From contig NC_057751.1 of NCBI RefSeq assembly GCF_004010195.1, positions 11,460,578 to 11,524,577 on the forward strand: a stretch of DNA of 64,000 nt. The letters are read 5' to 3'. The notes beneath the pieces are model-generated. The model had not been told where the DNA came from. It did not search any database and saw only the letters and a list, made by a program, of their open reading frames with translations. Positions 1,356-62,773 of this stretch are shown here, piece after piece. Positions within the stretch are counted from its first letter, which is position 1. Each line of letters starts with the position of its first letter. This DNA is from Chiloscyllium plagiosum. Lineage: Eukaryota. The translations under genes and the position numbers were made by a program.

Positions 1356-2790
1356 GGCTGTGAACAGCCTTCAGTTCACCTGGACCATTTCTGACACCTC
1401 CCTCCCCATCCTGAACCTCTCCATCTCCAGCGACCGACTCAACACAGACATCTACTACAAACCCACCGACTACAAAAGCTACCTGGACTACACCTCCTCC
1501 CACCCTGCTTCCTGTAAAATTGCTATCCCAATTCCCAAATCCTTCACCTCCGCCGCATCTGCTCCTAGGAGGAGCAATTCTACTCCTGGACATCCCAAAT
1601 GGTCTCATATTTCAAAGACCGCAATTTCCCTTCCCATGTGGTCAACAATGCCCTCCAGCACATACAGTCATAGCGTTATAGAGATGTACAGCATGGAAAC
1701 AGACCCTTCGGTCCAACCTGTCCGTGCTGACCAGATATCCCAACTCAATCTAGTCCCACCTGCCAGCACCCTGCCCATATCCCTCCAAACCCTTCCTATT
1801 CATATACCCATCCAGATGCCTCTTAAATGTTGCAATTGTACCAGCCTCCACCACATCCTCTGGCAGCTCATTCCATACACGGACTCCACTTCCCACACCT
1901 CCACCCTGGAACTCCATGCCTCCAACTACAATAAGAATGCAATACTTCCCCCCACCCCTGGTCCTCATCTTCCACCCCACCAACCTCTGGATACAACACA
2001 TCATCCTCCACCATTTCTGCCACCTCTGTGACTCTTTCGTTAGGTCCACATCCCCCACCAACCCACCCTCCACTCCTGGCATCTTCCCTTGCTACTATAA
2101 GAAGTGCAAAATCTGCACCCACACCTCCACCCCCACCCCCCACCTCAGACCAAGGCTTCAAAGGATCCTTTCACATCTGACAGAGATATTCCTGAACATC
2201 CAAACACCTCACCTACTGTGTCCATTGTTCTTGATGTGGTCTCCTCTACATTGGGGAGACAGGACACCAAGTTGTGGAACTTTTCAGAGACCATCTCCAG
2301 GATATACTGCCCCACAATCCCACTGCCCTGTGGCTGACCACTTCCACTGTCCCTCCCACTCCATCAAGGACATGCAAGTCCTGGGACTCCTCCACCGCCG
2401 TATGCTAGCCACCCGACACCTGGAAGAAGAATGTCTCATTTTCTGCCTTGGGACACTTCAACCACGACTTCAGCATCAACATCGATTTCACCAGGTTCTA
2501 CATCTCCCTCCCCTCACCTCATCCCAGATCCAACCCTCCAATTTGGCATCACTATCCATCTTCCTTCCCACCTATCCACTCCATCCTCCGCTCTGACCTA
2601 TTACCATCACCCCCCCACACCTGCATCAATCTAATGCCTTCCCACCCCAACCTGCTATTTATCTCTCAGCCCCCTTCCCCTCCTCCCCACAATTCCTGAT
2701 GAAGAGCTTATGTCTGAAACATCAACTCGCCTGTTTCTCAGAGGCTGCCTGACCTGCTGTGCTTTTCCAGCACCACACCTTTTGACCCTA
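1356..2790 (+). mobile_element. Penelope-like retroelement 3' half: RT thumb, GIY-YIG remnant, terminal repeat with decayed hammerhead
   Basis: FTWTISDTSLP..TDIYYKPTD..YLDYTSSHP in ORF 1324..2031; tgtggtctcctctacattggggagaca = CGLLYIGET at ~2236; CTGATGA..GAAAC at 2696-2720. Interrupted by a CR1 tail. Confidence 0.85.
1661..1880 (-). mobile_element. CR1/HER1-type LINE 3' end nested in the Penelope element
   Basis: Minus strand reads RVWNELPEDVVEAGTIATFKRHLDGYMNRKGLEGYG followed by a (gactctat)-like tail. Confidence 0.9.
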
Positions 2791-3249
2791 TCCACCATGA
2801 GATGTAAGGACAGCCTAAAACATAGAGTTTTGGGGTTGGGTGAACTAAAACCATGGTCACAGAGATGGCTTTTCAGAAGGGCTTTGAAGAAACAGACAAA
2901 AGCTGGTGAGGTTTAGCCCAGGTTTTCTTGAGAATGGGACCCAGGCAGCTGAAAACATGACTGCCCACCCTCTCCTTTCAGCCATGAACAACAAGCCAGA
3001 GCCAATGGTACAGAGAATTGGGAAGGTGTTTGCTGATGCAGAGGAGAATATAAGTTTGGTGTAAGGCTTAGGAGGATTCAGGTTTGAGATATGAATGGAA
3101 CCTGAGTGAATTGGTGATCTGACGAAGGGGAGAGTTCAGTAATAAATGTTCAAATCACTCATTTTGTTTTATCCCTCCACTGGCTATTAATAAATAACAG
3201 AAAGTGTTGTGTCAAGCTTCCTGATTTGATCAAATGAATATCTCTCGTG

Positions 3250-5430
3250 CATAGAGTTATAGAGTCAAAAAGCTGTACAGCATGGAAACAGACCCTTCAG
3301 TCCAACTCGTCCATGCTGACCAGATATCCTAACCTACTCCAGTCCCATTTGCCAGCACTTGGCCCATATCCCTCCAAACCCTTCTTATTCATGCACCCAT
3401 CCAGATGCCTTTTAAATGTTGTAATTGTACCAGCCTCCACCACTTCCTCTGGCAGCTTATTCCATACACGCACCACCCTCTGCGTGAAAAGATTGCCCCT
3501 TAGGTCTCTTTTATATCATTCCCCTCTCACCTGAAACCTATGCCTTCTAGTTCTGGACTTGCCCACCCCAGGGAAAAAACCTTGTCTATTTATCCTTTCC
3601 ATGCCCCTCATGGTTTTACTGACCTCTATAACTCCTCAGCCTCCGATGCTCCAGGGAAAACAGCCACAGTCTATTCAGCTTCTCCCTCTCACTCAAATCC
3701 TCCAACCCTGGCAGCATCCTTTTAAATCTTTTCTGAACCCTTTCAAGTTTCACAACATCCTTCCAATAGGAAGGAGACCAGAATTGCAGACAATATTCCA
3801 AAAGTGGCCCAACCAATGTCCTGTACAGCCACAACATGACCTCCCAATTCCTATACTCAATACTCTGACCAATAAAGGAAAGCATACTAAACGCCTTCTT
3901 CACTATCCTATCTACCTGCGACCCTACTTTCAAGGAGCTATGAACCTGCACTCCAAGGTCTCTTTGTTCAGCAACACTCCCTCGGACCTCACCGTTCTGA
4001 TTTGCTTTCCCAAAATGCAACACCGCACATTTATCTGAATTAAACTCCATCTGCCACTTCTCAGCCCATTGGCCCATCTGATCAAGATTCTGTTGTATTC
4101 TGAGCTAACTTTCTTTGCTGTCCACTACACCTCCAATTTTGGTGTCAGCTGCAAACTTACAAACTATACCTCCTCTGTTCACATCCAAATTATTGATATA
4201 AATGACGGAAGGTAATGGGCTCAGCACCGATCCTTGTGGCACTCCACTGGTCACAGGCCTCCAGACTGAAAAGCAACCCTCCACCCCACCACCCTCTGTC
4301 TTCTACCTTTGAGCCAGTTCAGTATCCAAATGGCTAGTTCTCCCTGTATTTGATCTAACCTTGCTAACCAGTCTCCCATGGGGAACCTTGTCGAATGCCT
4401 TACTGAAGTCCATATAGATCATATCCACTGCTCTGCTCTCATCAATCCTCTTTGTTACTTCTTCAAAAAACTCAGTCAAGTTGGTGAGACATGATTTCCC
4501 ACACACAAAGCCCTATTAATTATCCCTGATCAGTCCTTGCCTTTCTAAATACAAGTAAATCCTGTCCATCAGAATTCCCTCAAACAACTTGCCCACCACC
4601 AACATCAGGTTCATTGGCCTATAGTTCCCTAGCTTTTCCTTACCACCCTTCTTAAGCAGTGGCACCACAGTAGCCAACCTCCAGTCTTCTGGCACCTCAT
4701 CTGTGATATCGATGATACAAATATCTCAGCAAGGGGCCCAGCAATCACTTCCCTAGCTTCCCACAGAGTTCTAGGGCATACCTGATCAGGTCCTGAGGAT
4801 TTATCCATTTTTACATTTTAAGACACCCAACACCCCCTCCTCTGTAATATGGATATTTTTCAAGATGTCACCACCTATTTCCTCACATTCTAGATCTTCC
4901 ATGTCTTTTTCCACAGTTAACACTGATGCAAAATACTTGTTTATTATCTACCCCATCTCCTGTAGCTCCACACAAAGGCTGCCATGCTGATCTTTGAGGG
5001 ACTCTATTCTCTCCCTAGTTACCCTTTTGTCCTTAATGTTTTTGTAAACTCCCTTTGGATTCTCCTTAACTCTACTTGCCAAAGCTATCTCATGCTATCT
5101 TTTTGCCCTCCTGATTTCGCTCAAGTGTACTCCTACTGCCTTTATACTCTTCTAACGATTCACTCGATTTCTCCTGTCTATACCTGACATATACTTCCTT
5201 CTTTTTCTTAACCAAAAACCTCAAATTCTCTCGTCATCTTGCATTCCCTATACCTTTCAGCCTTTCCTTTCACTCTAACAGGAATATGTTGTCTCTCTAC
5301 TCTTATTATCTCATTTCTGAAGGCTTCCCATTTTCCAGCCATCCCTCTACCTGCGAACATCTGCTCCCAGTCAGCTTTTGAAAGTTCTTGCCTAATACCG
5401 TCAAAATTAGCCTTGCTCCAAATTCAAACT
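3250..5430 (-). mobile_element. CR1/HER1-type LINE, ~2.2 kb 5'-truncated, frameshifted
   Basis: Minus ORFs GKSCLTNLTEFFEEVTK..DMIYMDFSKAFDKVPH and WQMEFNSDKC..LEYCLQFWSP are CR1 RT; tail repeat at ~3250. Confidence 0.92.
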
Positions 5431-6089: not shown

Positions 6090-6650
6090 TTGTCTCATAG
6101 AGCTTTCATAGCCAGGAGAAAGGCTATTCAACCCATCACGTCTGCACTGGGCATCAAACATCCAACTCTTTCATCCCATTTTCCAGCACCTAGCCCATCA
6201 CCTTCAATGTTGTGGTGTTTTGATTGTTCATCTGAAATACTTATGAAATACCTTCAGGTCCCCTGTCTCGACCACCCTTTCAGACAGTGAGTTCCAGATG
6301 CCCACCACCCCCTTTTCCTCAAATCCCCTCTAAATCTCCTGCTTCCTACCTGTAAAACTGCCCTCTGCTTATTGATGCCTCTACCAAGGGGAAAGGCTTC
6401 TCCCTGTGAAGCCTGTTTATGCCCCTCAGAACTTTGTACACCTCAGCTGGGTACCCCTGCCCCCGTCAGCTCTCTGATGAAAACAATCCCAGTCTAGGAA
6501 TGATGAAGGGCTTTTGCTTGAAATGTGGATTTTCCTGCTCCTCGGATACTGCCTGACCTGCTGTGCTTTTCCAGCACCACTCTAATCTCGACCATGATCT
6601 CCAGCATCTGCAGTCCTCACTTTCGCTTTGAAAACAATCCCAACCTACCA
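6090..6650 (-). mobile_element. Old CR1 3' fragment, interrupted by a Penelope mini-insert
   Basis: Diverged similarity to the other CR1 3' ends in the window (cccattttccagcac..gccc, caccaccc, cccctctaaatct). Confidence 0.6.
6497..6628 (+). mobile_element. Penelope-derived mini-element (decayed hammerhead plus terminus) with target duplication
   Basis: tgatgaagggcttttgcttgaaatgt...cagcatctgcagtcctcactttc, flanked by tgaaaacaatccca at 6478-6491 and 6629-6642. Confidence 0.85.
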
Positions 6651-8100: not shown

Positions 8101-8119
8101 ATTAGGTTTTAAGTTACGG

Positions 8120-10085: not shown

Positions 10086-11057
10086 TGAGTCACAGCTGGT
10101 GATGTGCTGACATATAAATAAAAGCAGAAGAAATAGGAGCAAGAGAAGAATAATTATGGTGTGTGTGACATTCCACTTGTCTGCCACTGAATGAACACAC
10201 CTCATGGCAAAGGAGTGTCCAACTTTTCTGTCTCTCTGAATCATTAAGAGTGTGCACCATTATCCCCCAGGGTAATAGATAACAGTACAAATTCCATTCA
10301 TTTCTTACAGTCTCACGTTGCTGGTGCTGACAGATCCTGATGTTCTGATCTGGGTTTTATGTCTCATCAAGGCCAAAAGAGCCAAAAAAATCGATTTTGA
10401 GCCCCCGGACCCATATCATTTAAACAGGATAATTCATTGAGTAAGAGATGTGTGCCCCAAGTAGAAATGAAATACTTGAGTTTTGAGAGGCAGATTGGCA
10501 AGCTTTCAAAGACTATGAAAGCCCAACTAACAGTCAGAACCACTCCGGGTGAGATCTTTTGATAAATGAGCAAAGAACTTTATGCAAATGCTCATTGTAC
10601 TTCCTCTTAACTATGTATGGGGCGGGTTCAGTCTGCAGGAGTTGTGGGGGATTTTTTGTGTTTGTTGGTTGGATGTGGGCAGCACAGATTCAGCCAGCAC
10701 TTTTTGCCCATTCCCAAGTGCCCTTCAGAAGGTGGTGGTGAGCTGCCTTCTTGAACCGCTGTCGTCCAAGTTGTATTTGGACACCCATGGTGCTGTATCA
10801 GGAGAAGATTTAAAAAGGCAATAGCCTCATGGACCCCATATTCCTGTTATCACTTCAGTGCGCAGTGACACTGGTAATGGTCAGTGAGCAGCTCTCCAGT
10901 GAACATAGACAATCACAGGTGGATGGAGAACAGGGAAAAGTACTTCTTAAAAACGAGATTGATATTAAACCCATAACAGTAGGCGGAATGAATTTGATTC
11001 TGATCTTACTTAGAATCAGATTTGATCTTAGGAAAGAAAAGACTTGCATACATGTGT

Positions 11058-11350
11058 GGACAGCACAATGGCACAGTGGTTAGCACTGTTGCCTCACAGC
11101 ACCAGGGACCTGGGTTCAATCCCCATCTCAGGCAACTGACTGTGTGGCGTTTGCACATTCTCCCCATGTCTGTGCGGGTTTGCTCTGGTTTCCTCTCACA
11201 GTCCAAAAATGTAGAGGTTAGGTGAATTGGCCATGATAAGTTGCCCCTAGTGTCAGCGGCAAATGTAGGAGTCTGGATAGGTTGCACTTTGGTGGGTCGG
11301 TGTGGACGTGTTGGGCCGAAGGGCCTGTTTCCACACTGTAATCTAATGTA
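11058..11350 (+). mobile_element. HE1-type tRNA-derived SINE
   Basis: A box TGGCACAGTGG, B box GGTTCAATCCC, body tgtgtgg.gtttgcacattctcccc, and CR1-like tail gggccgaagggcctgtttccacactgt+aatct. Confidence 0.9.
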
Positions 11351-11749: not shown

Positions 11750-12045
11750 ATATAGAATATAGAAAAGTACAGCACAAAACAGACCCTCTGGCCCACGATG
11801 TTGTGCCGAGATTTAATCCTAATGTAAAATATAGTAAATTAACCTACACACCCCACAACTCACTGTTAGCCATGTGCATGTCCAGCAGTCGCTTAAATGT
11901 CCCTAATGACTCTGCTTCCACCACCTCAACTCCATGCATTCACAACTCTCTGCATAAAGAACCTACCTCTGACGCTTTATACCTTCCTCCTAATATCTTC
12001 AAACTATGACTTCTCATACCATGTCAATCCTGCCCTGGGGAAAAG
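11750..12045 (-). mobile_element. CR1 LINE 3' end (second subfamily, ttctata tail)
   Basis: tagaatatagaaaagtacagcac..cagaccct.tggcccacgatgttgtgccg, the reverse complement of a CR1 3' UTR. Confidence 0.75.
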
Positions 12046-12047
12046 TC

Positions 12048-12497
12048 AGGGTTGGAGGGTTTGAGCTGTAGGGAGAGGCTGAATCGGTTTGGGCTGTTTT
12101 CCCTGGAGCATCTGGGGCTCGGGGGTGACCTTATGGAAGTTCACAAAATCATGACGCGTATGGATTGGGTGAATAGCCACGGTCTTTTCCCCAGGGTAGG
12201 GAAGTCTAAAACGAGAGGGCATAGGTTTTCAGGTGGTAGGACAAAGAATGAAAAGGGACCCAGGTGGCAACTTGTTCACCAGAGCTTGGTGTGTGTGTGG
12301 AATGAGCTGCCAGAGGAAATGGTGGAGGCTGGTACAATGACAACATTTAAAAGGCATCTAAATGGGTATATCAATAGCAAGGGTTTAGAGGGATATGGCC
12401 CAAATACAGGCAAATGGACTAGATTATGTTGGGATATCTGGTTGGCATGAACGAGTTGGACCAAAAGGTCTGTTTCCGTGCTGTACATCTCTATGAC
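12048..12497 (+). mobile_element. CR1/HER1-type LINE 3' end
   Basis: EGLSCRERLNRFGLFSLE..VWNELPEEMVEAGT..FKRHL followed by a ctctatga tail. Confidence 0.9.
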
Positions 12498-13644
12498 GAG
12501 AACTTGTGAGCCGGAATGCTCTGGTGCAATCAATAGAACAAGGAAGCAGATTTGTGGCAGGGCGTGCAACTTCTGGATACCAAACCAGACTAACTGGCGG
12601 TCCCCTTGAAATGGTGAAGCCTCCTGAAGTGAGAGGGAGAGGGGGCAGCAGCCAGGAGTTGGAGCAGGTTGAAAGAGTGATGTATCAGCATTAAAGAACG
12701 AGGACTACAATTAGAGCAGAAAACAGCCTCTGAAAAATAGCAAGAAAGTTGGTATGTGGTAGTAGAGCTACAGCAGACCAACATAGATCAGTGGGGCAAA
12801 ACCATGGAGTTTGAGAGACCATGAGGGGAGAAAGATCTTCTAGATGTCTGTCAGATAAAGTCATGGGAAGTCACTTGTCAGAATTTCTGCAACTAAGCTC
12901 ATTATCCAGCTGATTGGAGATCAGGTGTTAAACTCTGCAACAATTGCCTGATGGATCTGCAATGGAAGGTGAAGGTTCATTGTAAATAGTTCATCCCTCT
13001 AAGATACACTTTTCTTGTCATATCTGTGAAGATTCTTTGCCAATGCAACCATGAATTCCTCTTTTATTACTTTGTGCAGTGTGTGTTTAAGCCAAAGCAT
13101 ATTACATGTATTCACCGATGGGTGTGGCTGCACTGTCTGACACTATCTGAAGAATTGCCACTGCACCTTTTTCAGGGAGCATTGTGCACCAAGGGAAATG
13201 AACAAGGAATCATGAAGGAGCCATTCTGCTTCACTCTCCAGCTGATGGCAGATGCATTCAAATCTATGGAAATGAGGCAAGAAGCTTATCTGGTCCATTT
13301 CCAGTCACATTCACCTTTGTAATCTGAGATGCAAATGATGTTTATTGCTCAAGCGGACCTTGAATGGCCAATCTGTGTGTGTTTCATGGCAGGGTAATCA
13401 TCTCTATGTGTATGTGTGCCCTTTCCATCTCTCTTTCTCTCTGCTCCTTTCAGAACCTCCTTGTTTGATTAAATGTAAGTGACGTGGTGTGAAACATAGT
13501 TTGATAATACTCCAGTGAAACACTTTGGTATGTTCGGATGCAGCAAGGATCAAAGGGTCCTTGGGGTGCAGGTACACCAGTCTCTTAAAGTAGTGGGACA
13601 GATTGATAAAGCAGTTAAGAAGTCATATGGGATAATTGGATTCT

Positions 13645-14899: not shown

Positions 14900-15024
14900 A
14901 TGGCTTTCAGTCCATGGCAGATCCTGTCCCCCATTCAGTGGGCCAAGTGGACATGGTCTGTGGTGAGACCAGGGCCAGGAGCTGAGGACAATGAAGGGGA
15001 AGACTCCAGCCCTGAAGAGAAAAG
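14900..15024 (+). CDS. TACC1: TACC1 first coding exon (transforming acidic coiled-coil protein 1)
   Basis: Hand translation from ATG 14900 gives MAFSPWQILSPIQWAKWTWSVVRPGPGAEDNEGEDSSPEEK(S), matching the recalled vertebrate TACC1 N-terminus MAFSPWQILSPVQWAKWTWS. Donor AG|gttaag at 15025, phase 2. Not present in the ORF track. Confidence 0.93.
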
Positions 15025-15424: not shown

Positions 15425-16097
15425 GTGGTGAGGAAGAGGCAGCAGTACATGTTATTGTCGTAGAACTTGACAGTGTGCCAGCTGCAGTTGGCCGGACTGT
15501 GCTTGCAGGTTTAACCGTTTTTGAGAGCAATGCGCTGAGTCCAACGTGCAGTATCGAATGGGGGAAACTGTGTTAATTCCTCTCTTCCTTGTTACACAAC
15601 AGAAATCTTCACAACCTTGCTTGATCCCTAACCCCCTCGCAGCCACGCCAACCCCCGAAGCCATTATTTTTCAGCAGAGATGCAAATGCCTTGGATCTTT
15701 TTTTAAAAAAATTGTTCCAGCCTGCCAGCGTTTATTTAGTGGAGATTACTAGTGAGTGCATTTGCAGCAAGGGTGTACACTGAAGATTTATCTCAGTGCT
15801 CAGGATTTACTGAAAAAATTCTGGGAATATTTTCAGAAAGTTGCACAAAATTCCGTTTTCCAACTGTGAATGAAAGGGAACCTTGAGCTTTCACGCTGCA
15901 GGTAGTTGGTTGCATTATGACAGCTTAAAATACCTGCGTTAGGATTTTGCATACTTTCCCTCACCACTCTCAGCATCACAAATAATTGCTTTTGATTGCT
16001 GCACAGTGTGATTTTACAGGAATGGTCATTCATCTCCAATATCAAGATCCTGATAAAAGTTTAGACAATTGTTTGGAAATATTTCCGATTTTCACCA

Positions 16098-19892: not shown

Positions 19893-20430
19893 AGGAGACC
19901 ATTCAGCCCCTCGAATCTTCACCAACCCTGCAAAGCGCATCACATCCAGACCCACCTGCCCAACCTATTCTCATAACCCTTTCATGGGCTCTTTACCATG
20001 GCCAACACACGAATCTTTACATCTGTGGATAGAATCAGACCAATCCATCTAAACTGTATGTCTTTGGTTAAAAATAAAACAAACAGCTGCGGATGCCGGA
20101 AATCAGAAACAAAAACACAAATTGTTGAAAAAGATCAGCAGATCTTGGCAGCATGTGTGAAGAGAAATCAGAGTTAACATTTCGGGATAAGTGAGGAAGG
20201 GTCTCCAGATCCGAATTGTTAAGTCTCGTTTCTCTTCACGGATGCTGCCAGACCTGCTGAGCTTTTCCAGCAATTTCTGTTTTTGCTTCTGCCCGTCTTT
20301 GGACTGTGGGAGGAAACCTATGCAGACACAGGAAGAACATGCAAACTCTGCATGGACAAATTGCCCAAGGCTGCAATCAAATTCTGGTCCCTAATGCTGT
20401 GAGGCAGCAGTGCGTCAATGTGTCACCCTA
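19893..20430 (-). mobile_element. HE1-related SINE split by a fold-back Penelope insert
   Basis: gtctttggactgtgggaggaaacc..tgcaaactc..gctgtgaggcagcagtgc is the HE1 body and head on the minus strand. Confidence 0.75.
20068..20294. mobile_element. Inverted pair of Penelope termini (fold-back mini-element)
   Basis: Arm 20105-20185 is the reverse complement of arm 20211-20290 (~80 bp, imperfect); gtctttgg is repeated at 20060-20067 and 20295-20302. Confidence 0.8.
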
Positions 20431-21879: not shown

Positions 21880-21995
21880 AGAGTTTTGAAGAAGAATCAC
21901 TGAATCTGAAGCGTTAACTCTGCTTTCCTTCTGCAATGATGCTGCCAGTCCTGCTGAGTTTTTGTTTCCCCAGCAGCAATTTCTGATTTTGTTTG
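21880..21995 (+). mobile_element. Decayed Penelope terminus
   Basis: tgaagaag..tgaagcgttaactctg..gatgctgccagtcctgctgagttt, the same subfamily as 20190-20290. Confidence 0.65.
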
Positions 21996-22323: not shown

Positions 22324-22945
22324 TTTAGAGATGCCAGTGTTGGACTGGGGTGTACAAAGTTAAAAATCACACAACACCAGGTTATAGTCCAACAGGTTTA
22401 ATTGGAAGCACACTAGCTTTCGGAGCGTCGCTCCTTCATCAGGTGATTGTGGAGGGCTCAGTCCTAACACCGAATTTATAGCAAAAATTTACAGTGTGAT
22501 GTAACTGAAATTATACATTGAAAAATTGATTGTCTGTTAAGCCTTTCATCTGTTAGAATACAGTGATAGTTTCACTTCTTTCATATGTAAATCACAAAAC
22601 CTTTTTTTAAAGTTGCACTCTCGGGTTAGCTGTTAACAATGGTGATAGCAAGACAATAAATTGAAGGCGTTGGCCCCCTGTGTTCTCTGTCTATGCCATG
22701 ATGTTTAGATTGATTCTAATTTTAAAAAGTGAGATAACAGAGTATTAAATAAATTCATGCAGTTTTTGACCTCCGAGTTCTACATGAATGCATGCAGTTT
22801 TTGACCAAAGTACAATGTAACTCTGCAAGTACAAATTCACCCCACAAAATATATGTGTGCATGTGGGTCTTTGTCTGTGTGTGTGTGTCTGTCTGTCTGG
22901 GGTGGGGGTTGTGAGTGTGAGAAAGTGTGTGTGTGTGTAGTGAAT
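22324..22945 (-). mobile_element. Young Penelope-like element 3' end (second family) with intact hammerhead and CA-rich tract
   Basis: Minus strand cacctgatgaaggagcgacgctccgaaagctagtgtgcttccaattaaacctgttggactataacctggtgttgtg; (TG)-rich run at 22850-22940. Confidence 0.75.
22411..22445 (-). ncRNA. Minimal type I hammerhead ribozyme motif
   Basis: CAC-CUGAUGA-A-GGAGC(GAC)GCUCC-GAAAGCUA-GUG: stem I CAC/GUG, 5-bp stem II, palindromic AGCU in place of stem III, predicted cleavage after CUA. Confidence 0.75.
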
Positions 22946-27767: not shown

Positions 27768-27858
27768 CTGAAAATGTGTTGCTGGAAAAGCGCAGCAGGT
27801 TAGGCAGCATCCAAGGAGCAGGAGAATCGATGTTTCGGGCATGAGCCCTTCTTCAGGA
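27768..27858 (-). mobile_element. 91-bp Penelope hammerhead mini-element with 15-bp target duplication
   Basis: Minus strand tcctgaagaagggctcatgcccgaaacatcgattctcctgc...; actgggagagagaag at 27753-27767 and 27859-27873. Confidence 0.9.
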
Positions 27859-28845
27859 ACTGGGAGAGAGAAGACATGGGGGAAGAGGGTATAGAAAAGT
27901 AAGGGAGAGAAAGTAATGTCTCGGACTTTGGGGAGGGAGCGGGTACAGTATATATGTATGAGGGAAGCGAGTGTGTCAGTGATGGGTTGGAGAGGTACAG
28001 GGTGTTTGAGAGAGGGAGTAACCAGTGTGCGGATGATGGGGTGGTGTCAGCAAGAGAGGAATACAGGGTATTGGTGATGGAGCAGAGAGGGAGCCAGAGG
28101 GTGTGTGGGTGAAGGGGAAGTTGATTATTAAAAAAGAAAATAGCAGCTGCAATTCAACAGAAAATAATAATTTTCCATTAAATTCCAGCTGCAGCTTGCT
28201 GTGGTAACACCGGTCTTGTGTCTTGTAATTTAATGATTTTAGCAAGGAGTGACAATTCTTGTCAGTGTTATTTATGGAAGATTTAATTGGCCATTATTTG
28301 ACCTTCTAAGCTATATTTGTCTGTAATGAGCAGTATAGTAAAAGATTGAGTGGCGAGGCTGATTGTATGTCTGCTGTATTGTGACTCTGTTCTAGAGTTG
28401 TGGTAAGATGGTGGATGTGTAGGGCGTCTGAGCCCAGGCGTTCCTCCACTCCATCTGCTTTTCATTTTGCTTCTTTTCTATCTTTTCTCTCTTTTTTTTC
28501 TGTTTCTTCATTTACCTCTTGTTGAAGAGCATGGTGACAGCACCAGTGACGGTGAGGGAGCCCAGCAGCATGGACTCAGTGGTGTCAGAGGCATGTTTGG
28601 GTTCCCATCTGCTTTGGTATCTTTGAGGCAATCCCCACACTGCCTCATGGCTGTTGTGGGGGAAGCGAGTCTAGGCCCACTATGAGACTGGCAGCATCAG
28701 CAACAGCTGTGTTGGTGGGTTTCAGCAAAAACTCAGTGGCATGCTTGTCGCTGGAGGTGAGATGGCGCCAGCATCCATGGCATTTTGATGGAGACTTGTG
28801 CCAGCCCACCAGCCCATGGTGGACCACTTAACAAGAAGGACTGTA

Positions 28846-32459: not shown

Positions 32460-32660
32460 TATGAGAAATGTGTGCGCTGGAAAAGCACAGCAGATCAGGC
32501 AGCATCCAAGGAGCAGGAGAGTCAATGTTTCGGGCATAAGGTCCTCATCACATTCCCGATGAAGGTCTTATGCCCAAAATGTCGACTCTCCTGCCGTGCT
32601 TTTCCAGCGCCACACTTTTCGACTCTGACTTTCCAGTACACTGCAGTCCTCACTTTCTCC
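32460..32660. mobile_element. Inverted pair of Penelope hammerhead termini
   Basis: Minus arm 32465-32550 (gctggaaaagcacagc..tttcgggcataagg.cctcatca) abuts plus arm 32551-32660 (cattcccgatgaagg.cttatgccc..ctgcagtcctcactttctcc). Confidence 0.85.
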
Positions 32661-33214: not shown

Positions 33215-35250
33215 AGATAACAATGCGGAGGAATGGGATTGTGGGAGACATAACAGTTTGGATCAGTAATTGGCTTGCTGAAAGAAAACAGAGGGTTGTA
33301 GTTGATGGAACATGTTCATCTTGGTGTCCAGTTAGTAGTGGCGTACCGCAAGGGTCAGTGTTGGGTCCACTGGTGTTCGTCATTTTTATAAATGACCTGG
33401 ATGAGGGCTTAGAAGGGTGGGTTCATAAATTTGCAGACGACACCAAGGTCGGTGGAGTTGTGGATAGTGACGAAGGATGTAGTAGGTTGCAGAGAGACAT
33501 GGACAGGATGCAGAGCTGGGCTGAGAGGTGGCAAATGGAGTTTAGTGTGGACAAGTGTGAGGTGATACACTTTGGACAGAGTAATCGGAATGCAAAGTAC
33601 TGAGCTAATGGTAAGATTCTTGGGAGTGCAGATGAGCAGAGAGACCTCCGTGTCCATGTACACAGATCCTTGAAAGTTGCCACCCAGATTGATGGGGTTG
33701 TTAAGAAGGCATACAGTTTTATGGCCTTTATTAACCGAGGGATTGAGTTCCAGAACCAGGAGGTTATGCTGCAGCTGTACAAAGCTCTGGTACGGCCGCA
33801 GCTGGAGTATTGTGTGCAGTTCTGGTCACCGCATTATAAGAAATTACAGACCAGTGAGTCTCACTTCAGTTGTTGGTAAAGTGTTGGAAAAGGTTCTAAG
33901 AGATAGGATTTACAACCATCTGGAAAAGAATAATCTGATCAGGGACAGTCAGCGCAGTTTTGTGAAGGGTAGGTCGTGCCTAACGAATCTTGTTGAGTTT
34001 TTTGACAAAGTGACCAAACAGGTAGATGAGAGAAAACAATTTGATGTGGTGTATATGGATTTCAGCAAGGCGTTCAATAAGGTTCCCCACAGTGGGCTAT
34101 TATACAAAATATGGAGGAATGGGATTGTGGGAGACATAGCAGTTTGGATCAGTAATTGGCTTGCTGAAAGAAAACAGAGGGTTATAGTTGATGGAACATG
34201 TTCATCTTGGTGTCCAGTTACTAGCGGGGTACTGCAAAGGTCGGTGTTGGGTCCACTGCTGTTCGTCATTCTATAAAAGACCTAAATGAGGGCTTAGAAC
34301 GGTGGGTTAGTAAATTTGCGGATGACACTAAGGTCGGTGGAGTTGTGGATAGTGACGAAGGATGTAGTAGGTTGCAGAGAGACATAGATAGGATGCAGAG
34401 CTGGGCTGAGAGGTGGCAACTGGAGTTTAGTGTGGACAAGTGTGAGGTGATACTCCACTCCAAGGAGCAGGAGAATCGACGTTTCGGGCATAAGCCCTTC
34501 TTCAGGAATGAGGAAAGTGTGTCCAGCAGGACTGGGCTAATGGTAAGATTCTTGGTAGTGTAAATGAGCAGAGAGATCTCGGTGTCCAGGTACACGGATC
34601 CCTGAAAGTTGCCACCCAGGTTGACAGGGTTGTTAAGAAGGCATACAGTGTTTTGGCCTTTATTAATAGAGGGATTGAGTTCCGGAACGATGAGGTTATG
34701 CTGCAGCTGTACAAAGCTCTGGTACGGCCACACTTGGAGTATTGTGTATAGTTCTAGTTACTGCATTATAAGAAGGATGTGGAAGCTTTGGAAAGGGTGC
34801 AGAGGAGATTTACTAGGATGTTGCCTGGTATGGAAGGAATGCCTTAAGGGAAAGGCTGAGGGCCTTAAGGCTGTTCTCGTTAGAGAGGACAAAGTTGAGA
34901 GGTGACTTAATAGAGACATACAAGATAATCAGAGGGTTAGATAGGGTGGACAGGGAGAGTCTCCAAGTATGGGGACTGCAAACACGAAAGGACACAACTT
35001 TAAAGTGGGGGGAGATAGGTATAAGACAGATGTTAGAGGTAGTTTCTTTACTCAGAGTAGTGAGGGTATGGAATGCTTTGCCTGCAACGGGAGTAGATTA
35101 CTCAAGTTTAAGTGCATTTAAGTCGTCATTGGACAGGCACATGAACGTACATGGAATAGTGTAGGTGAGATGGGCTTCAGATTGGTATGACAGGGCGGCG
35201 CAACGTCCAGGGCCGAAGGGCCTGTACTGTGCTGTAATGTTCTATGATCT
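33215..35250 (+). mobile_element. Young CR1 LINE RT region with ~630-bp internal tandem duplication
   Basis: RNGIVGDI.VWISNWL..GVPQGSVLGP..KFADDTK occurs at 33222-33841 and again at ~34110-34772. NYRPVSLTSVVGK starts at 33842. 3' tail ctgtactgtgctgtaatgttctatg. Confidence 0.93.
34474..34510 (-). ncRNA. Minimal hammerhead ribozyme motif in a 77-bp Penelope patch (34454-34530)
   Basis: CAUUC-CUGAAGA-A-GGGC(UUAU)GCCC-GAAACGUC-GAUU: intact core, ACGU palindrome, GUC triplet, short and imperfect stem I. Confidence 0.7.
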
Positions 35251-36120: not shown

Positions 36121-37329
36121 CTAGTCCTTGCTGTATATTTTACAACATCAAGGCCTTCTCTAGCTACAATTAGCTTGTATTCCAGTATTTAGTATTATTG
36201 GACAATAAATGGTATTATTTTGAAGTCTCAGCCCGAAGATACATCTTGACTTTGCCCTCTCCTTGATAGGCCTATTTTGAATCATCAAGCCACATGGTAA
36301 ATGACACATGACAAAAGTAGACATTCCAGCTTTGACCAGGGTTCCTGTCCCACATGACCAGTTCCCTCTAGATTAAACTGGCAGCTGATAGTCATTGTCT
36401 TCACTGCTTTGGGGCGAAAGGCCATAGCTCATGTGCAATGAAATGGTCCATGCCTCTGAGCCAGGAGGTTTCAAATACCACCTGCTCCCAGGGGTGCGTA
36501 ATGACATCTCTAAATGGGAAGAATGGCTACTATTGAAGAGACCAAGATGGGAAAGGGTCAGAAGAGCATGGAAAGGCAATCAAAAAGCTTGTCTTGTCCA
36601 TCTCTCTGAACAGAAACTGTCCCATTGGAAGATGCAACTCCTTACACAAGTCTGCTTCAGATCAGTGATGATCTCCACACATGGAAACAATAGTGACAAA
36701 ATTGAAACTCACCGGTGTGAGGATTTATGTGTGAACTAAAAGAAAATACAAGATTCTGTGCTTGTTAAGCATCACAACAGTTGGAAACAATTTGGGTTTA
36801 CAAATTGTTGACAATACGTTTTGTTTCCTTGAGTGCTAATCACACTTGCAGATTTTGTTGTTTAGAGAACAAACAGTGCTGGAAATATTCAGTAGGTTAG
36901 ACAGCATCAGTTGACAGAATAAGCAAGCTGATATTTCAGGTTGATAACCTTGTGGATATCTGAAGGTTCTCCAAACCCATGGCTCCGTCATCCTCAGTTG
37001 CACCAAATATTTAACTTTTCCCCATTTTCAGGGGTGGCATTCAAGCCTTGGCCCACAGGACCCTGAAACCAAATGAATTTCCTGGTTATGTGCGGTTACA
37101 TTTCTCTGTCTGCTGTAAATCCTGCTCTCAGTCATAGACAAAGGCTGTGCTATTTCTGTCTTAATTACTGTAAAATAGAAGCCTTTTCATCTCATGATGC
37201 TGTAAAATGAAACCCATGATAATGTTACAATCCTTACGATATACAAGACAAAGAAATGAAGTTGAGACATAAGGATACTCAGTCGGTGTAATTATCAGAA
37301 AGCTTCCTGTTCCATTAAATTGAGAGCAA

Positions 37330-45130: not shown

Positions 45131-45250
45131 ACATTGCTGATGAAGGGCTTTTGCCCGAAGTATCGATTTTCCTGCTCCTCGGATGCTGCCTGACCTGCTG
45201 TGCTTTTTCAGCGCTACTCTAACCTCCAGCATCTGCAGTGCCCACTTCCA
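45131..45250 (+). mobile_element. Penelope hammerhead mini-element (core mutated)
   Basis: ctgatgaagggcttttgcccgaagtatcgattttcctgctcctcggatgctgcctgacctgctg. Confidence 0.85.
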
Positions 45251-45984: not shown

Positions 45985-46130
45985 CGTCTTCAGTTCTGAA
46001 TAAGAGTCATATTGGGCTTGAAACATGAGCTCCATCTCTCTCTGTACAGGTGCTGCCAGATCTGCTGAGTTTCTCTCAGACTGCCTTTTTTTGTTTCAGA
46101 TCTTCACTATGTACATATACTTTGCTTTTA
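45985..46130 (+). mobile_element. Decayed Penelope terminus (older subfamily)
   Basis: ttctgaataagagtca..ttgaaacat..tgctgccagatctgctgagtttct. Confidence 0.6.
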
Positions 46131-47534: not shown

Positions 47535-47792
47535 ACAATGGCAAGAGGATTTCGCCTCTGGATTCATTCCTCCCATCGACCAGCCAGGTCGTACCCACTA
47601 CCTATGTTCACCTATCACTACTTCACCACTCTGCCCCTTCCCCCCCCACCAAACCTCCCTCCCTCCCAGACTTTATCTGCAGCTCCCCCTAACTCCACCT
47701 CCATTCCTGAAGAAAGGTTATACCCAAACCGTTGACTTCTCCACTTGCTGATGCTTGCTGTGTTCTTCCAGCCTCCTGCCTGTCTACTGTGG
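47535..47792 (+). mobile_element. Penelope-like 3' UTR/terminus (third subfamily), hammerhead decayed
   Basis: C-rich UTR, tttatctgcagc, then cattcctgaagaaaggttatacccaaaccgttgac. Confidence 0.65.
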
Positions 47793-47803
47793 AGATTGAC
47801 TGA

Positions 47804-48710
47804 CTAGGAGAAAGTGAGGACTGAGATGCTGGAGATCAGAGTCCGAACGTGTGGCACTGGAAAAGCGCAGAAGGTCAGGCAGCTTCCGAGAAGTAGGAGA
47901 GTCGACGTTGCAGGCGCAAGCCCTTCATCAGGAATGTTGGGGGTGGGGGAGATGTCCAAGGGGGCTGAGAGATAAATGGGAGGGGGTGGGACATGCAGGG
48001 AAGATAGCTAGGAAGATAGATAGATAGATGAAGGTGGTGGGTGATGGTGATAGGTTGGATCGGTTAGGTGTGAAGGAAGATGAACAGGTAGGACAGTTCA
48101 AGAGGGCTGTGCCGAGTTGGAGAGTTGGATCTGGGACAAGGGATGGGGAGCTGAGGAAACTGGTGAAACATCAATGTGGTCTTCTCTACATTGGGGAGAC
48201 AGGATGCCAGCTTGCAGAGCATTTCAGGGAACATCTCTAGGACACATGCACTAAACAACCCCACTACCCTGTGGCCGAACACTTCAATTCTCCCTCCCAA
48301 TCTGCCAAGGACATGCAAGTCCTGGGCCACCTCCACCACTAGATCCTAGCCACCCAACTACTGGAGGAAGAACACCTCATTTTCCACCATGGGACCCAAA
48401 TGGGATCAACATTGACTTCTCCAGTTTCCTCATCTGCCCTCCCCCCATCTTAACCCAAATCCAACCCTCCAACATGGCACCTCCCTCTTGAACTGTCCTA
48501 ACTGTCCATCTTTCTTCCCACCGATCCACTCCACCCTTCACTCCGACCAATTTCCATCACCCCCACTTGCATTTGCCTTCCTAGCTTTATCTCTCAGACC
48601 CCGTCACCCTCCACATTCCTAACAAAGGGCGTTTGCCCAAAATGTTGATTTTCTCCTCAGATGCTGCCTGATCTGCTGTGCTTTTCCAGCAATATACCTA
48701 TTTACTCTGG
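47804..48710. mobile_element. Penelope element with inverted terminal arrangement (minus arm 47804-48170, plus arm 48171-48710 with GIY-YIG remnant)
   Basis: CGLLYIGETGCQLAEHFREHL at ~48175; both arms carry the same 3' UTR and terminus in opposite orientation. Confidence 0.87.
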
Positions 48711-49005: not shown

Positions 49006-49337
49006 TTAAAATGCAGAATTAAAAATAAATGCTTTAAGTTCCTGACAAATCATAATTCTGCAGCACGATTTTCTCACACCACGGACTCTGAATTTCATCC
49101 CACCAGGGCTTTAGTCTGTCTTGTACTAGCTGCGTTAGCCAGCGTTCCATTGGGTTTTAGAGAGGGAAGGGGTGGTTTGAATTCCTGGGATGGTGTGCAA
49201 CTCCCCCACTGTGCTTGTTTCATACAGGTGGGGAGCTCATTACGTGCAGCATTTGCTGGGTAAGACGTATGAGGCAGAATTTACCTGGAATTCTGCACTG
49301 CTCTGATTTCCAGCTCAGTGACGTGTCACATCAACAT
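49006..49337 (+). repeat. Local ~330-bp direct duplication, copy 2
   Basis: Colinear with 46345-46674; both end sharply at cagtgacgtgtcacatcaacat. Confidence 0.92.
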
Positions 49338-50390: not shown

Positions 50391-50715
50391 ATTAGATTAG
50401 ATTAGATTACTTTAGATTAGATTACTTACAGTGTGGAAACAGGCCCTTCGGCCCAACAAGTCCACACCGCCCCGCCAAAGCGCAACCCACCCATACCCCT
50501 ACATGTACCCCTTTACCTAACGCTACGGGCAATTTAGCATGACCAATTCACCTAACCTGCACACCTTTGGACTGTGGGAGGAAACCAGAGCACCCAGAGG
50601 AAACCCGCATGGACTCTGGGAGAATGTGCACCCTCCACACACAGTCACCCGAGGGTGGGATCGAACCCAGGTCCCTGATGCTGTGGGGCAGCAGTGCGAA
50701 CCACTGAGCCACCGT
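50391..50715 (-). mobile_element. HE1-type SINE, full length with expanded (attag)n tail
   Basis: Reverse complement of HE1; B box GGTTCGATCCC on the minus strand; tail partly duplicated. Confidence 0.9.
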
Positions 50716-53080: not shown

Positions 53081-54248
53081 TAGACTTGCACCCTGAAGAC
53101 GAGCAGTTGTTAACAGAATCGCCACTGCCTCTAAAGAGCCCGGCTGGGAGTCACTCATTGCTGGAGTCAACCCAGTATGATGCTTCACATAGCTTCAAGC
53201 CTCATGATCGAGTAGGACTTGGTATCACTGGCAGTACAGCTTCAGCCCACACCATCAGTGCCAGTCAGTGCTCTGAGGTACAAAACACTCTGGAAGTTAA
53301 GGAAATTGCAGATGAAGTAAGAACAGGCAGAGATTGTCCACCAATTTCCCTCACCGGTCCCTTGCTGCTGCCAGATAGCATATCAGAAAACCTGGGGACC
53401 AGTGTCCAAGGAAGAGAGATGACTGTGTCTGAGGAAGAAGTACCAGCCATGGACCAAAAGGCAGAGGCCTTGGATGTACAGACTCTACCTGGTATCACCG
53501 AGTCAAAAAAGGCAAAACCTCCTGTCCTGGAAGTTGAGACTGTGGAAGGTGGGGCATCAGTAAAAGATAATGTCGTAATGAAAAGGACATCAGGCTGTAA
53601 TTCTGACCCTAGTGATTTTCCTGAGATTAAGAACCTTTCTAACACGGAAATGTCAGGGATTCAGCCATCGCCCCCGGTTCACGGACAGCCCTCTCTCTCA
53701 GCGAATGCTGCAGACGTGGATGAGCCGGGACCACAAGCAGAACACAAAGACTTGGCACTTAAGCTGGAGTTTGACTTTTCGGAAGATAAGGAAAATGCAG
53801 AGGGGAGGGTGCCAGTGCCAAGGAAAGTGGGTAAAAAGCCTGGCAGCAAGTCCAGTGGGAAGAAACAAAGAACAGCAGTCTTGAAGGCCAGTGCTTCTGA
53901 AGAAAAAGACATTACTCCCACCACCAACTTTGATGACATTCCCATTCCAAACAAGTCCTACAATTTGGATTCTACCAAGTGGGATGATCCCGATTTCAAC
54001 CCATTCGGCAGCTCCTCTCATCTACAGAACTCTCCCATGCAGCCGAAGGCCTCGTATACATTTGATCCTGACTGCTTGGATTCAGTTGACCCTTTCAAGC
54101 CCACCAAAACGTTAGCTAACACATTGGAGCCCCCTGCTCCCTTGGAGCCGGAGACTGCCAGGACTGAACAGCCCACTGTGGAGGGAGCATCCGATGTGGG
54201 GAAAGCGGCACAAGAGTCACCCAAGAAGAACAAGCCCCGAGTGATAAC
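53081..54248 (+). CDS. TACC1: TACC1 large exon 3 (acidic Ser/Pro-rich region with SDP repeats and basic NLS-like patch)
   Basis: Lies inside ORF 53071..54252. Acceptor ttgcctgcag| is phase 1 (G+TA=Val), compatible with exon 2. Contains LKLEFDFSED, PRKVGKKPG, KWDDPDFNPFGS, ASYTFDPD..DPFKP and ESPKKNKPRVIT, all recognisable TACC1 motifs. Donor AC|gtgagt at 54249, phase 2. Confidence 0.93.
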
Positions 54249-59669: not shown

Positions 59670-62647
59670 GTAAGTACTTGGAACTGTTTTGCACGATCAG
59701 AGTCTGTTCCTTATCTGTGCTAATTCATTGTATGCATTGTACAGTTCCTTGGTTACCATTTGTTCAATAGCGATGACCAGAAAGCTGCAATGCCCCATGA
59801 TGCGAAACGATATGACTTGATTCCACTTTCCAAGATTCAATAAACCATCAGGAACATGTTAGTTGTCACCTCCAGCTTTGCTATTTCAGCCAGGTCTGGC
59901 TTTTTAGTGTTTGCACGAATGATCAAGGGAGTCTGTGATCAGGTTCAAGAGAGGAGTTTGTAGCTGGCCTTCTTGCTGAAGAAACCCTGTGAACAAATAG
60001 ATCCCACTGTAGGGAATCACTGGGACTTAAGTCTGTTAGGAGACCTTACTTTGTATCTCAACTATCAGCTTCAACAAATGATAGTCAAATATAGGAAACA
60101 CGGGTCTGGCCAGGATGAGACTGTAAGGACTCCTAACCTCGTCCAGCCCCCTTGTCCTTTCCTGGTTGCTCCAATCTGCAGACCATCTGCAAATTCCTAG
60201 TAAGACACAGACAGGACTTCAAATCCGATAGCCATGCCATTGTCTCTTATTGACAAATACACCGTCGTGATGCACTCAAAGGGTGGGAGAGGTTTGCAGC
60301 ATAATCAGTTTTCAAGACCAGAGCTAGTCTCGATGGAAAAAGTTTCTTCATTTAAATGGAATGTCAGTGGCATTGTGAAGAGCAGAGGTCAGGTGTGTCA
60401 CTGGGGAAGCCATGGGCAGCCAGTGACTTTGTGGAACTCAGCAACTGGCGAGAGAGACAGAGGGGAGAGAGAGGAGAGTGCAGATATCCCCTCAATAACT
60501 CGGGAGTAATCTGGTTTAATTTATGTGATGGAAGCTTAAAACAAGAGCTTGGAACAGAGGGCAACTATTGACCTTGAAAAGAAGCAATCTTTAAACTCGC
60601 TCATGCCAAAGGTTTCGGGGTAATTTAACAGGATAATCACTTTTTAAAAAGGTTTTCAAGTTTCTCTGGGGCACTGCAGCTTTACTTTCTACTGAATCCT
60701 ACAATGTGTTCTGTGGTAGCTCATCGCTGATTGTGAAGTCACCTTCACACAAGGTATAAAATAGAACCCAAAGCACTAATTTGATACAAAGTGCATAAAA
60801 ATGCCAAAATTTCTGAGTGGAAGGAATGAAGTATTCCCTTCCAGGAATAGCTTTGTTAGTTATTTTATGCCTTACAAACATCTTTCTGCTATTTAATTTT
60901 TTTCGACATGTGTAAGTACTAATTTCTTAGTACGACACATGAGTACTGCTGTGATCTGAGCTGAACCAGAAAACGCTGGCCCAGAGACTACTGCTCTTTT
61001 TGCTGACTGATTTTAAACTAGATTAAAGAACAAAAACAAATCCCATTACATAAAACCTGTTTTTGAAATATTTATTCCTAAGTGTTAATCTTCAGGCAAG
61101 AAACTGTTAATGATAGATTTATCATGCATTTTAATATACATAGGGTGAAGTTGTGGCCTTATCTACTCAGGCAGACTGAGTGTGGGACAACTAAATGCAG
61201 GTCTTGGATGTAATAAGCTCACATTGCTTACACAATCATTATCTTCCTCAGTGTGGGGCGTCAGCTAATAAGTTGATTGTCGTTTTGTTATTTGAAATGA
61301 GGTTTTGCTCTTGCCCAGCCCATTGGAAAGTTTTCAGTACAAAGGCCAGTTTGAAGGCAGTAATGTTTATGTATCTGTACCTTTTTTTCTTTAGCAATGT
61401 CTGTTCCTCCTCCTGTTACCTCCCATCCTCCATTCCTGATGATTACAGGGTGGGAGGGGATAAACTGTTGGACCGGGGCCCATGGATCATTTCAAGTCAA
61501 GGCACTTGGCATGATTCGTGGCTTATTTGAGGTACAAGATCGGAATGCTTCCCTTCAACTATTGAGAGCATTGTGCCAGATAGTCAACCAATGAAGGCTG
61601 TTTAGAAGTTGAGGTCCTCCTTTTGACATACTCACTAGCTTCTGGTCTCATGCAGCTCGACAGCTGATGAGTAGGATGCATGTCTGGGGCCAGTTTGCTG
61701 TCTGAACTATGAATAGCAATGCTTGTGGTCATCTGTTACTCCTAATGGCCCAGTATGTGTGCAGACAATAGGAGACATAATTGCTGCAGGGTTATAGTGG
61801 CCACCTAATGATAGGTCAGCATGGTTTTGGAGTCTGTTATCTCAGATCAGGCACCTTCTGCATAATGTTAAGGGGTTTAAATTCAATGAATTGCAAGAAC
61901 AACTAAAGTAAACAAAATTGGTGCAGTAACATTTGAGGTCAGGGTACGTGTTACACCTTTTGAAGGTGTAATTCCGAGTACACAAGATTAGACTATTCCC
62001 ATAAACCAGCAAGCAAAAGTGAAGCAGAATGTTTTGTTTTAAAAACAGATGAAGTTCAAGAGGAAATGGAGAGTACAATTCCTGCAGAAGGAAAGGAAAA
62101 ATAAGAGTCACATGAAAAGGTTGATGAGGAGTGGTGAGAGAGACCTGGAGAAAGGTATCGCAGCTGGAGCTAAGTTGATTAATTTTGAAGGAAGTGAGAT
62201 GGCAGTTACAAATAGGCATGAAATGAAGAATGAGTGCACAATAGGAACTATCTCTTCATTTATGCATTCATAGAGATGATGTAAACAATACATCCTCTTC
62301 CAGCAAAGATACCCTAAATTAAATTATTAACTTTGACATCAAGGAGATGGAAGCCCAGGACAGACTAATTGTGCATGAAGCAAACAGCTCCCAAAGGACA
62401 TGGTTGTTTAACCTCTCATGTTGGAAAGGATTTGTCAATTATTTACATTCATTATTAGGGATTCGGTCAATGCGAGGGAGATATCTGCAAATTATGAAGA
62501 GCTGAATGTTCATGGACAGGGTGGCAAAATACACACGGGAATCCACAGGCCCATGAGTCTGCCTTCTAATGCATGTCAAATATTGCTGAAAAAGCATGTG
62601 TCAAAGAGTTTTGTCTGTGCTACCTTATGACAACATGTAAAATAATT

Positions 62648-62773
62648 TCCTGAAGAAGGGCTTATGCCCAAAACGTCGATCCTCCTGTTCCTTTGATGCT
62701 GCCTGATCTGCTGCGCTCTTCCAGCAACACATTTTCAGCTCTGATCTCCAGAATCTGCAGTCTTCACTTTCTC
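62648..62773 (+). mobile_element. 126-bp Penelope hammerhead mini-element with perfect 14-bp target duplication
   Basis: tcctgaagaagggcttatgcccaaaacgtcgat...tctgcagtcttcactttctc, flanked by catgtaaaataatt at 62634-62647 and 62774-62787. Confidence 0.92.

What the first reader, a model, noticed from the sequence alone, without database searches (positions are those of the whole stretch)
2691..62773. Swarm of minimal hammerhead-ribozyme motifs carried by Penelope-like termini across the TACC1 locus
Seen: the motif (AUUC)CUGANGA-A-GGGC(4-nt loop)GCCC-GAAACGUC(GA) or decayed versions recurs at ~2696, 6500, 20190, 21885, 27830, 32530, 32555, 34480, 45137, 45995, 47705, 47910, 48615 and 62650, plus a second-family version at 22411. 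At 2696 and 48615 it follows a GIY-YIG (YIGET) remnant, which ties it to Penelope-like elements. Established: PLE terminal repeats carry minimal type I hammerheads in which stem III is reduced to a palindromic tetranucleotide, proposed to work as dimers. Inference: about one copy per 4-5 kb here implies a very large genomic ribozyme population in this lineage, in several subfamilies with co-varying stem II. The concept is known in other animals; its extent in this genome may not be described.
Basis: partly seen in the sequence, partly recalled or inferred. Interest (0 to 1): 0.75.

Follow-up and report, generated by a model that had tools for sequence, protein, structure and literature searches.

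The report
Penelope retroelement stubs headed by hammerheads
These are mostly decayed end-pieces of Penelope-type jumping genes, which are already known to carry a minimal hammerhead motif predicted to self-cut; the genome holds over 100,000 intact-looking cores, and many copies begin just before the motif, which likely marks where the element's RNA starts rather than where it cuts itself.

Summary
All 15 listed sites are copies of Penelope-like (PLE) terminal repeats, and the YIGET remnants lie about 430-450 nt upstream of 2696 and 48619. Only 2 of 15 (34505-, 22442-) keep core, stem II and palindrome intact. Exact intact cores genome-wide: 87,506 + 17,087 + 585 + 8,890 in four families (reversed controls 0); a random sample extrapolates to about 0.9 million copies, mostly decayed. 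Stems co-vary between families. This is the published PLE minimal hammerhead, at higher copy number, and is not specific to the TACC gene. Intact copies are not depleted on the sense strand of introns, and RNA reads show no ends at the cut site, so a large active ribozyme population is not supported. The lead worth keeping: in three Neptune-type families a TATA-like box lies about 30 nt before a sharp 5' truncation point just upstream of the core, with excess G before it. Insertions starting at the cut site are rare. Copies likely record reverse transcription of uncut, capped RNA up to its start. The Poseidon-type family lacks this pile-up. The scan reported the same reading before, on this and other genomes. 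No cleavage or start site was measured.

The parts
45..1371 (-). Inverted arm of a Neptune-type PLE insertion (decayed RT, linker and start of endonuclease)
   Evidence: ORF 625-999(-) with RT-like LVLTFNNF/YINDC; tblastn hits 516-45; inverted repeat 51-163 / 2131-2243
1372..2790 (+). Forward arm of the same insertion: RT thumb, CX4CxxC linker, GIY-YIG remnant (YIGET at about 2247), 3' pLTR; interrupted at about 1660-1880 by another repeat
   Evidence: 32,091 first-look candidates for its thumb peptide in the genome
2658..2663 (+). TATA-like TTTATC box, 38 nt before C3 of the 2696 copy
2692..2727 (+). Family A hammerhead motif, core boxes kept, stem II and palindrome decayed
6495..6630 (+). 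Family A stub, core broken, 14-bp target-site duplication
14900..15024 (+). First coding exon of the host TACC-family gene (TACC1 by recalled N-terminus)
   Evidence: TACC_C exons downstream on +
20123..20273 (.). Family C head-to-head pair, both decayed (+ arm C3 about 20190, - arm from 20186)
21880..21978 (+). Family C copy, decayed
22411..22450 (-). Family B hammerhead, intact (C3 22442; stem I CAC/GUG; 5-bp stem II; AGCU palindrome; predicted cut 22414/22413; predicted RNA start 22450)
22475..22480 (-). TATAAA box, 30 nt before the predicted start of the family B copy
27768..27860 (-). Family A stub of about 93 nt, core boxes intact, palindrome lost (ACAU), 15-bp target-site duplication
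32468..32660 (.). Family A head-to-head pair (arms at 32552- and 32556+), both cores broken
34459..34535 (-). Family A hammerhead, intact (C3 34505; predicted cut 34478/34477), inserted in a LINE remnant
36876..36940 (-).
45133..45250 (+). Family A stub, GAAA box broken
45992..46074 (+). Family C copy, decayed
47640..47772 (+). Older A-related copy with upstream TTTATC, GAAA box broken
47810..47950 (-). Family A copy, stem II and GAAA broken
48172..48699 (+). GIY-YIG remnant (YIGET at about 48187), 3' UTR, TTTATC at 48586, decayed family A hammerhead (C3 48619)
53081..54248 (+). Large coding exon of the host TACC-family gene
62646..62773 (+). Family A stub of about 128 nt, G12A substitution, 14-bp target-site duplication

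Best explanation
The motifs are end-pieces of Neptune-type Penelope-like retroelements that carry the known minimal hammerhead fold, most are decayed, and the short ones likely arose when the element's reverse transcriptase, likely primed inside the RNA, copied an uncut and likely capped transcript up to its start, which is predicted to lie at or a few bases before stem I. Shown: PLE context, copy numbers, co-variation between families, a TATA-like box 33-40 nt before C3, 5' ends piled at -4 (families A, C) or -8 (family B, few non-inverted cases), 3' ends at two sites about 37 nt apart, target-site duplications, excess G before the pile-up position, and few insertions starting at the cut site. 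Inferred: that the pile-up is the transcription start, that the G copies the cap, and that the ribozyme is under selection only in the active master element, where it cuts rarely, as a dimer or with help from the element's protein. The dispersed copies are then passengers with little or no activity.
For: Context: YIGET upstream of the motif with a CX2-5CxxC linker in families A and B; L166 shows pLTR-ORF-pLTR with the ATG right after the tail. Counts. Truncation: 110 of 190 A, 52 of 87 B and 66 of 89 C in-register copies end within 15 nt upstream of C3 (the control shows chance extension of a few to 15 nt). The element's own letters are kept to -4 and fall to background at -5/-6 in A and C; in B 7 of 10 non-inverted short copies keep -8. 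TATA-like box at -33 to -39 (A, 27 of 28 long copies), -33 to -35 (C, 7 of 7), -38 to -40 (B, 4 of 5), so box-to-pile-up distance is about 30 nt in all three although distance to the core differs. Letter just before the pile-up when not the element's own C: G in 54 of 100 listed A copies and 67 of 100 B, versus 12 of 100 one position further in; hand counts, tests. With resolved target-site duplications, 4 of 5 single extra bases in A are G. 3' ends at +90-95 and +124-133 match the two internal priming sites and 30-40 bp tail of PMC11167929. Cut-site starts are rare: 953 matches, about 40 of 100 listed being true junctions, against 9,837 at +1; in unbiased stretches 43 of 144 arms end at -7 to 0 and 12 of 144 at +24 to +32. 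RNA reads from many copies give loose ends at the -4 position (123 reads) and no pile-up of molecule ends.
Against: No start site was measured. The Poseidon-type family D has a TATAAA box but no pile-up at stem I or 30 nt after the box (27 of 36 copies extend 52 nt or more), so the pattern is not general. Many G's sit at inverted junctions or inside the target-site duplication (6 of 10 G cases in A), where they can be templated. The two B cases with extra bases were A and AA, not G. The -4 control is dominated by inverted junctions. Family A's TTTATC is a poor TATA match, and the one PLE promoter studied in a paper I read (D. virilis, PMC2377424 passages) is TATA-less and internal. Stem I in the commonest A subfamilies has a U-U mismatch, and minimum-energy folds do not form the hammerhead.
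Confidence: 0.7

Rival explanations
1. Same PLE stubs, but the 5' pile-up comes from the reverse transcriptase stalling or folding back after the hammerhead hairpin, or from microhomology between the element's ATT and AT-rich cut targets, not from the RNA start.
For: 65 of 110 short A copies and 42 of 52 short B copies have an inverted arm. Many TSDs overlap ATTC by 1-4 nt. The anole PLE endonuclease prefers ATT (PMC11167929).
Against: The pile-up sits at -8 in B and -4 in A and C, following the TATA-like box and not the core; B and C have no ATT there. G excess is specific to one position. Family D has a longer stem II and no pile-up.
Confidence: 0.18
2. The dispersed intact copies are an active genomic ribozyme population that cuts host pre-mRNAs.
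For: At least 114,068 exact intact cores; motif-containing RNA is abundant on both strands; in the TACC introns both intact copies are antisense and all 8 sense copies are broken.
Against: Across 9 other genes intact copies were 9 sense vs 4 antisense; pooled with TACC and flanks 10 vs 7 (Fisher p 0.59). No read-end pile-up at the cut site (weak, as such libraries capture cut ends poorly). Published monomers of this type showed no cleavage (PMC4209133) or needed protein (PMC11167929). Intronic cutting may be tolerated, so the strand test is not decisive.
Confidence: 0.07
3. The stubs are a self-propagating non-autonomous family (SINE-like or retrozyme-like) copied from their own transcripts or circles.
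For: Uniform 93- and 130-nt units with TSDs. PLE-derived retrozymes are described (bioRxiv 10.64898/2026.07.22.740005, passages).
Against: Stubs lack the upstream TATA-like box. The sampled copies are solitary or inverted, not tandem arrays. Each family's motif is the same as in endonuclease-linked long copies.
Confidence: 0.05

Closest known systems
Minimal hammerheads in pLTRs of metazoan PLEs (Cervera and De la Pena 2014, PMC4209133; parts 1-2 of 4 read: abstract, results, discussion)
   Same: Type I layout, extra nucleotide between A9 and G10.1, G10.1-C11.1 pair, palindromic stem III positions, short stem I, many families with compensatory changes, mostly single copies from truncated PLEs, some close pairs on opposite strands; reported in fish Xena, Poseidon and Neptune PLEs.
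   Different: Exact intact counts here (at least 114,068) exceed the about 4,000 (coelacanth) and 9,000 (Xenopus) reported there, with different descriptors. The parts read name no cartilaginous fish (supplements not seen) and do not tie the motif to a transcription start or to 5' truncation points.
Poseidon element of the green anole (Frangieh et al. 2024, PMC11167929; parts 1-2 of 4 read)
   Same: Two internal priming sites giving the tail; hammerhead near the ORF start; uncut RNA is the dominant template; no RNA reads ending at the cut site.
   Different: Poseidon clade, with the ORF starting in stem II; here Neptune-type, and in family B the ATG follows the tail about 120 nt after the core. 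That paper maps 3' ends, not 5' ends.
Complex insertions of endonuclease-bearing PLEs (Craig et al. 2021, PMC8557442; Arkhipova et al. 2013, PMC3846280; passages read)
   Same: 5' truncation, partial tandems, inverted 5' copies, 30-40 bp tail, CX2-5CxxC linker in Neptune; a putative TATA box plus initiator noted in a rotifer pLTR.
   Different: In the passages read, no link between the promoter motif, the hammerhead's first bases and a truncation hot spot.
Non-LTR retrozymes (bioRxiv 10.64898/2026.07.22.740005; passages read)
   Same: Hammerhead-bearing, derived from PLE pLTRs, found in one chondrichthyan genome.
   Different: Defined as tandem arrays with at least two consecutive units; the copies here are dispersed, solitary or inverted.

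Membership tests
PLE minimal hammerhead (min-HHR) | CUGANGA and GAAA-NN-UH core boxes | tested here: met
   Intact at 34505 and 22442; 114,068 exact genome matches, controls 0. Broken in 11 of 15 window copies.
PLE minimal hammerhead (min-HHR) | Unpaired nucleotide between A9 and G10.1; G10.1-C11.1 pair | tested here: met
   Bulged A in families A-C, bulged U in D; G-C closing pair in all family majorities.
PLE minimal hammerhead (min-HHR) | Palindromic stem III positions | tested here: met
   ACGU 185 and AGCU 85 of 337 core-intact motifs; ACAU/AUGU (55) fit CpG decay (set enriched by my searches).
PLE minimal hammerhead (min-HHR) | Compensatory changes in stems I and II between families | tested here: met
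   Stem I: AUUC/GAAU, CAC/GUG, AGUU/AACU, AGCU/AGCU, GCA/UGC. Stem II: GGGC/GCCC, GGAGC/GCUCC, GGGUC/GACCC, GAGUC/GACUC, GUC/GAC. Read by eye from family majorities, no statistic; the commonest A form has a U-U mismatch in stem I.
PLE minimal hammerhead (min-HHR) | Located in the pLTR of a PLE | tested here: met
PLE minimal hammerhead (min-HHR) | Self-cleavage as dimer or with protein help | not testable with these tools
   No assay; RNA reads show no end pile-up.
Neptune clade of PLEs | RT followed by C-terminal GIY-YIG endonuclease with CX2-5CxxC linker | tested here: met
   Families A and B by linker and domain order; C by endonuclease similarity and a linker in L068. Definition from PMC8557442.
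Neptune clade of PLEs | Placement in the RT phylogeny (separating Neptune from Nematis) | not tested
Non-LTR retrozyme | Tandem array of two or more hammerhead-bearing units | tested here: not met
   Window copies and sampled loci are solitary or head-to-head; no dedicated tandem-array scan of the genome was run.

The most novel reading that the evidence does not exclude
In these Neptune elements the hammerhead is the capped leader of the transcript: RNA starts at stem I, so self-cleavage removes the cap with a 32-37 nt leader. The ribozyme would then be a switch that sorts RNAs between an uncut, capped template (recorded in hundreds of thousands of stubs ending at the cap) and a cut form with another fate, such as cap-independent translation or decay.
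Probability: 0.3. Interest if true: 0.72.

Novelty: new member of a known kind. Interest (0 to 1): 0.4.

Why it matters
The class is published, so the motif itself is ordinary. Two things add value. The intact count is more than ten times the vertebrate counts in the founding paper. And the genomic copies act as a natural map of the element's RNA: they point to a start at the ribozyme's first bases and to an uncut template. The role of PLE hammerheads is an open question (stated in PMC8557442 passages), and this gives one base-precise prediction that CAGE and an in vitro assay can test.

Tried and rejected
Rfam scan: no hammerhead family at E<=1. Pfam did not detect the short window remnants (0 families for 5 window PLE peptides, for the L166 RT fragment and for the TACC exon). 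Long 'open frames' were mostly runs of N; no complete PLE ORF was recovered. First truncation map by all-against-all BLAST was confounded by inverted arms and was replaced; 7 misregistered references were dropped, and 366 of 467 copies passed the register filter. The idea that intact copies avoid the sense strand, suggested by the TACC introns, failed in 9 other genes. The prediction that family D would pile up 30 nt after its TATA box failed. Energy folds of monomers and dimers did not give the catalytic fold and are uninformative. Run search: no listed holder is on record as RNA; run X19 laid no reads, and X1 and X5 are only guessed to be RNA. A second read lay on family B gave no result, so family B has no read-based check. 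Literature searches found no paper on hammerheads in shark PLEs or on a start site at the hammerhead; the library lacks most subscription papers, and I did not see the dimer-cleavage paper on PLE-associated small hammerheads that I recall from 2017.
Full report
Observation. The window holds a dispersed repeat whose head is CUGANGA-A-stem-GAAA-NN-UH. A profile from six copies recovers the listed sites and two more partial copies, with no comparable hit on the reversed window. The 22411 site is a second family on the - strand. Of 15 copies, 34505(-) and 22442(-) are fully intact, 27856(-) and 2696(+) keep both core boxes but lose the palindrome, and 11 have core substitutions such as G12A at 62650. 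Rfam has no matching model at E<=1. The host gene is a TACC-family gene on the + strand; TACC1 is my recalled reading of its N-terminus, and 'shark' is inferred from recalled repeat content and was not tested.

Context. At 2696 and 48619 the motif follows a GIY-YIG remnant by about 430-450 nt. Window 45-2790 is a head-to-head unit with decayed RT, a CX4CxxC linker and endonuclease. Genomic copies show the same order for families A, B and C. L166 gives pLTR-ORF-pLTR for family B, with the ATG just after the tail and the endonuclease deleted. The linker marks Neptune-type elements (PMC8557442 passages). A fourth family, D, follows an endonuclease without that linker (Poseidon-type) and is not among the listed sites.

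Scale. Exact intact cores in the 3.56-Gb genome: A 87,506, B 17,087, C 585, D 8,890; all reversed-pattern controls 0. In 60 stretches of 10 kb taken at fixed coordinates on 30 contigs (578,219 non-N bases) there were 199 copies of A-C, 151 covering the core, 44 descriptor hits of which 33 palindromic, against 1 in the reversed control. This extrapolates to about 0.9 million copies (0.76-1.05) and about 196,000 intact (135,000-275,000). The window's density is therefore the genome's. Cervera and De la Pena report about 4,000 in coelacanth and 9,000 in Xenopus with another descriptor (PMC4209133).

Structure. Family majorities keep the core, the bulged nucleotide after A9, the G10.1-C11.1 pair and a palindrome (ACGU or AGCU), while stems I and II change on both sides. 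This shows selection on the fold in the master lineages. Within families, departures fit neutral CpG decay (ACAU, AUGU, G12A). Stem I is only 2-4 bp and carries a U-U mismatch in the commonest A form.

Ends of the copies. 110 of 190 A, 52 of 87 B and 66 of 89 C in-register copies stop within 15 nt upstream of C3, and many have an inverted arm. The element's letters persist to -4 in A and C and drop to background at -5/-6; in B 7 of 10 non-inverted short copies persist to -8. Long copies carry a TATA-like box about 30 nt before those positions in all three families. The base before the pile-up, when not the element's own C, is G in 54 of 100 listed A copies and 67 of 100 B copies, against 12 of 100 one base further in (hand counts of the first 100 rows, nearly all from contig 1; tests). 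Among 29 TSD-flanked non-inverted A stubs, 4 of 5 single extra bases are G, while 6 other G's lie inside the TSD; in B the two extras were A and AA. 3' ends fall at +90-95 and +124-133, like the two internal priming sites shown for the anole element (PMC11167929). Junctions at the predicted cut site are scarce: 953 matches with about 40 of 100 listed being real junctions, against 9,837 at +1 (the patterns are of similar but not equal stringency). In unbiased stretches the commonest 5' end is -4 (14 of 144 arms); 43 fall at -7 to 0 and 12 at +24 to +32. Family D shows no such pile-up.

Activity. Single-cell RNA reads laid on a long A copy cover the motif on both strands, give 123 loose ends at the -4 position with unrelated flanks, and show no pile-up of molecule ends; this fits read-through of many genomic copies and says little about cutting. 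Intact copies are not depleted on the sense strand: 9 sense vs 4 antisense in 322 kb of nine fn3-domain genes, 10 vs 7 with TACC and flanks. The TACC pattern (2 intact antisense, 8 broken sense) is thus likely chance. Published monomers of this type did not cleave or needed protein (PMC4209133, PMC11167929).

Mechanism. Most likely a promoter in the upstream pLTR starts a capped RNA at or just before stem I. The element's RT primes inside the RNA at the tail, and when it uses the 5' pLTR it reaches the cap after about 93 or 130 nt, sometimes copying it as G, often after folding into an inverted arm. The template must have been uncut, since both sides of the cut site are present. Start site, cap and priming are inferred; rivals are stalling or microhomology at the hairpin (0.18), an active host-cutting population (0.07) and a self-propagating stub family (0.05).

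Novelty. Searches found the class described and no paper on shark copies or on a start at the hammerhead; supplements were not seen and subscription papers are mostly absent. I had noted the start-site reading before looking up the scan's earlier notes, which report the same on this and other genomes; they are not independent support. A 2026 paper shows self-cleavage promoting cap-independent translation in viral UTRs (PMC13725137 passages), a parallel for the novel case only. Verdict: new member of a known kind, interest 0.4.

Noticed in passing
L123, L129, L306-L320: A fourth, Poseidon-type hammerhead family (bulged U, stem II with an A-G mismatch; 8,890 exact copies) with a TATAAA box about 53 nt upstream and no 5' pile-up.
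   Followed up: partly
L092:+ and L235:-: A fifth, related motif (stem II starting RUUACC, ending GGUAAU) with different flanks.
   Followed up: no
L166:3250-6300 (-): Family B pLTR-ORF-pLTR unit whose endonuclease is missing: the ORF jumps from the linker cysteines into the 3' pLTR.
   Followed up: partly
window 1660-1880, 3250-4200, 11870-12500, 15990-16970, 28840-29100, 33200-35160: Many LINE RT remnants and their 3' ends, on both strands; the intact 34505 copy is inserted in one.
   Followed up: no
window 11050-11340, 21667-21753, 23066-23400, 40318-40549, 41381-41614, 50412-50641: A SINE-like family resembling the shark HE1 SINE (name recalled, not tested).
   Followed up: no
G000 C1, rows: Several perfect head-to-head palindromes centred on the predicted start (both arms meeting at GAATTC).
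   Followed up: no
L172:7751-8961 (-): Minisatellite-like repeat giving long repetitive open frames, just upstream of the window.
   Followed up: no
window 46360-46659 and 49023-49322: 300-nt direct repeat at 88% identity, not identified.
   Followed up: no
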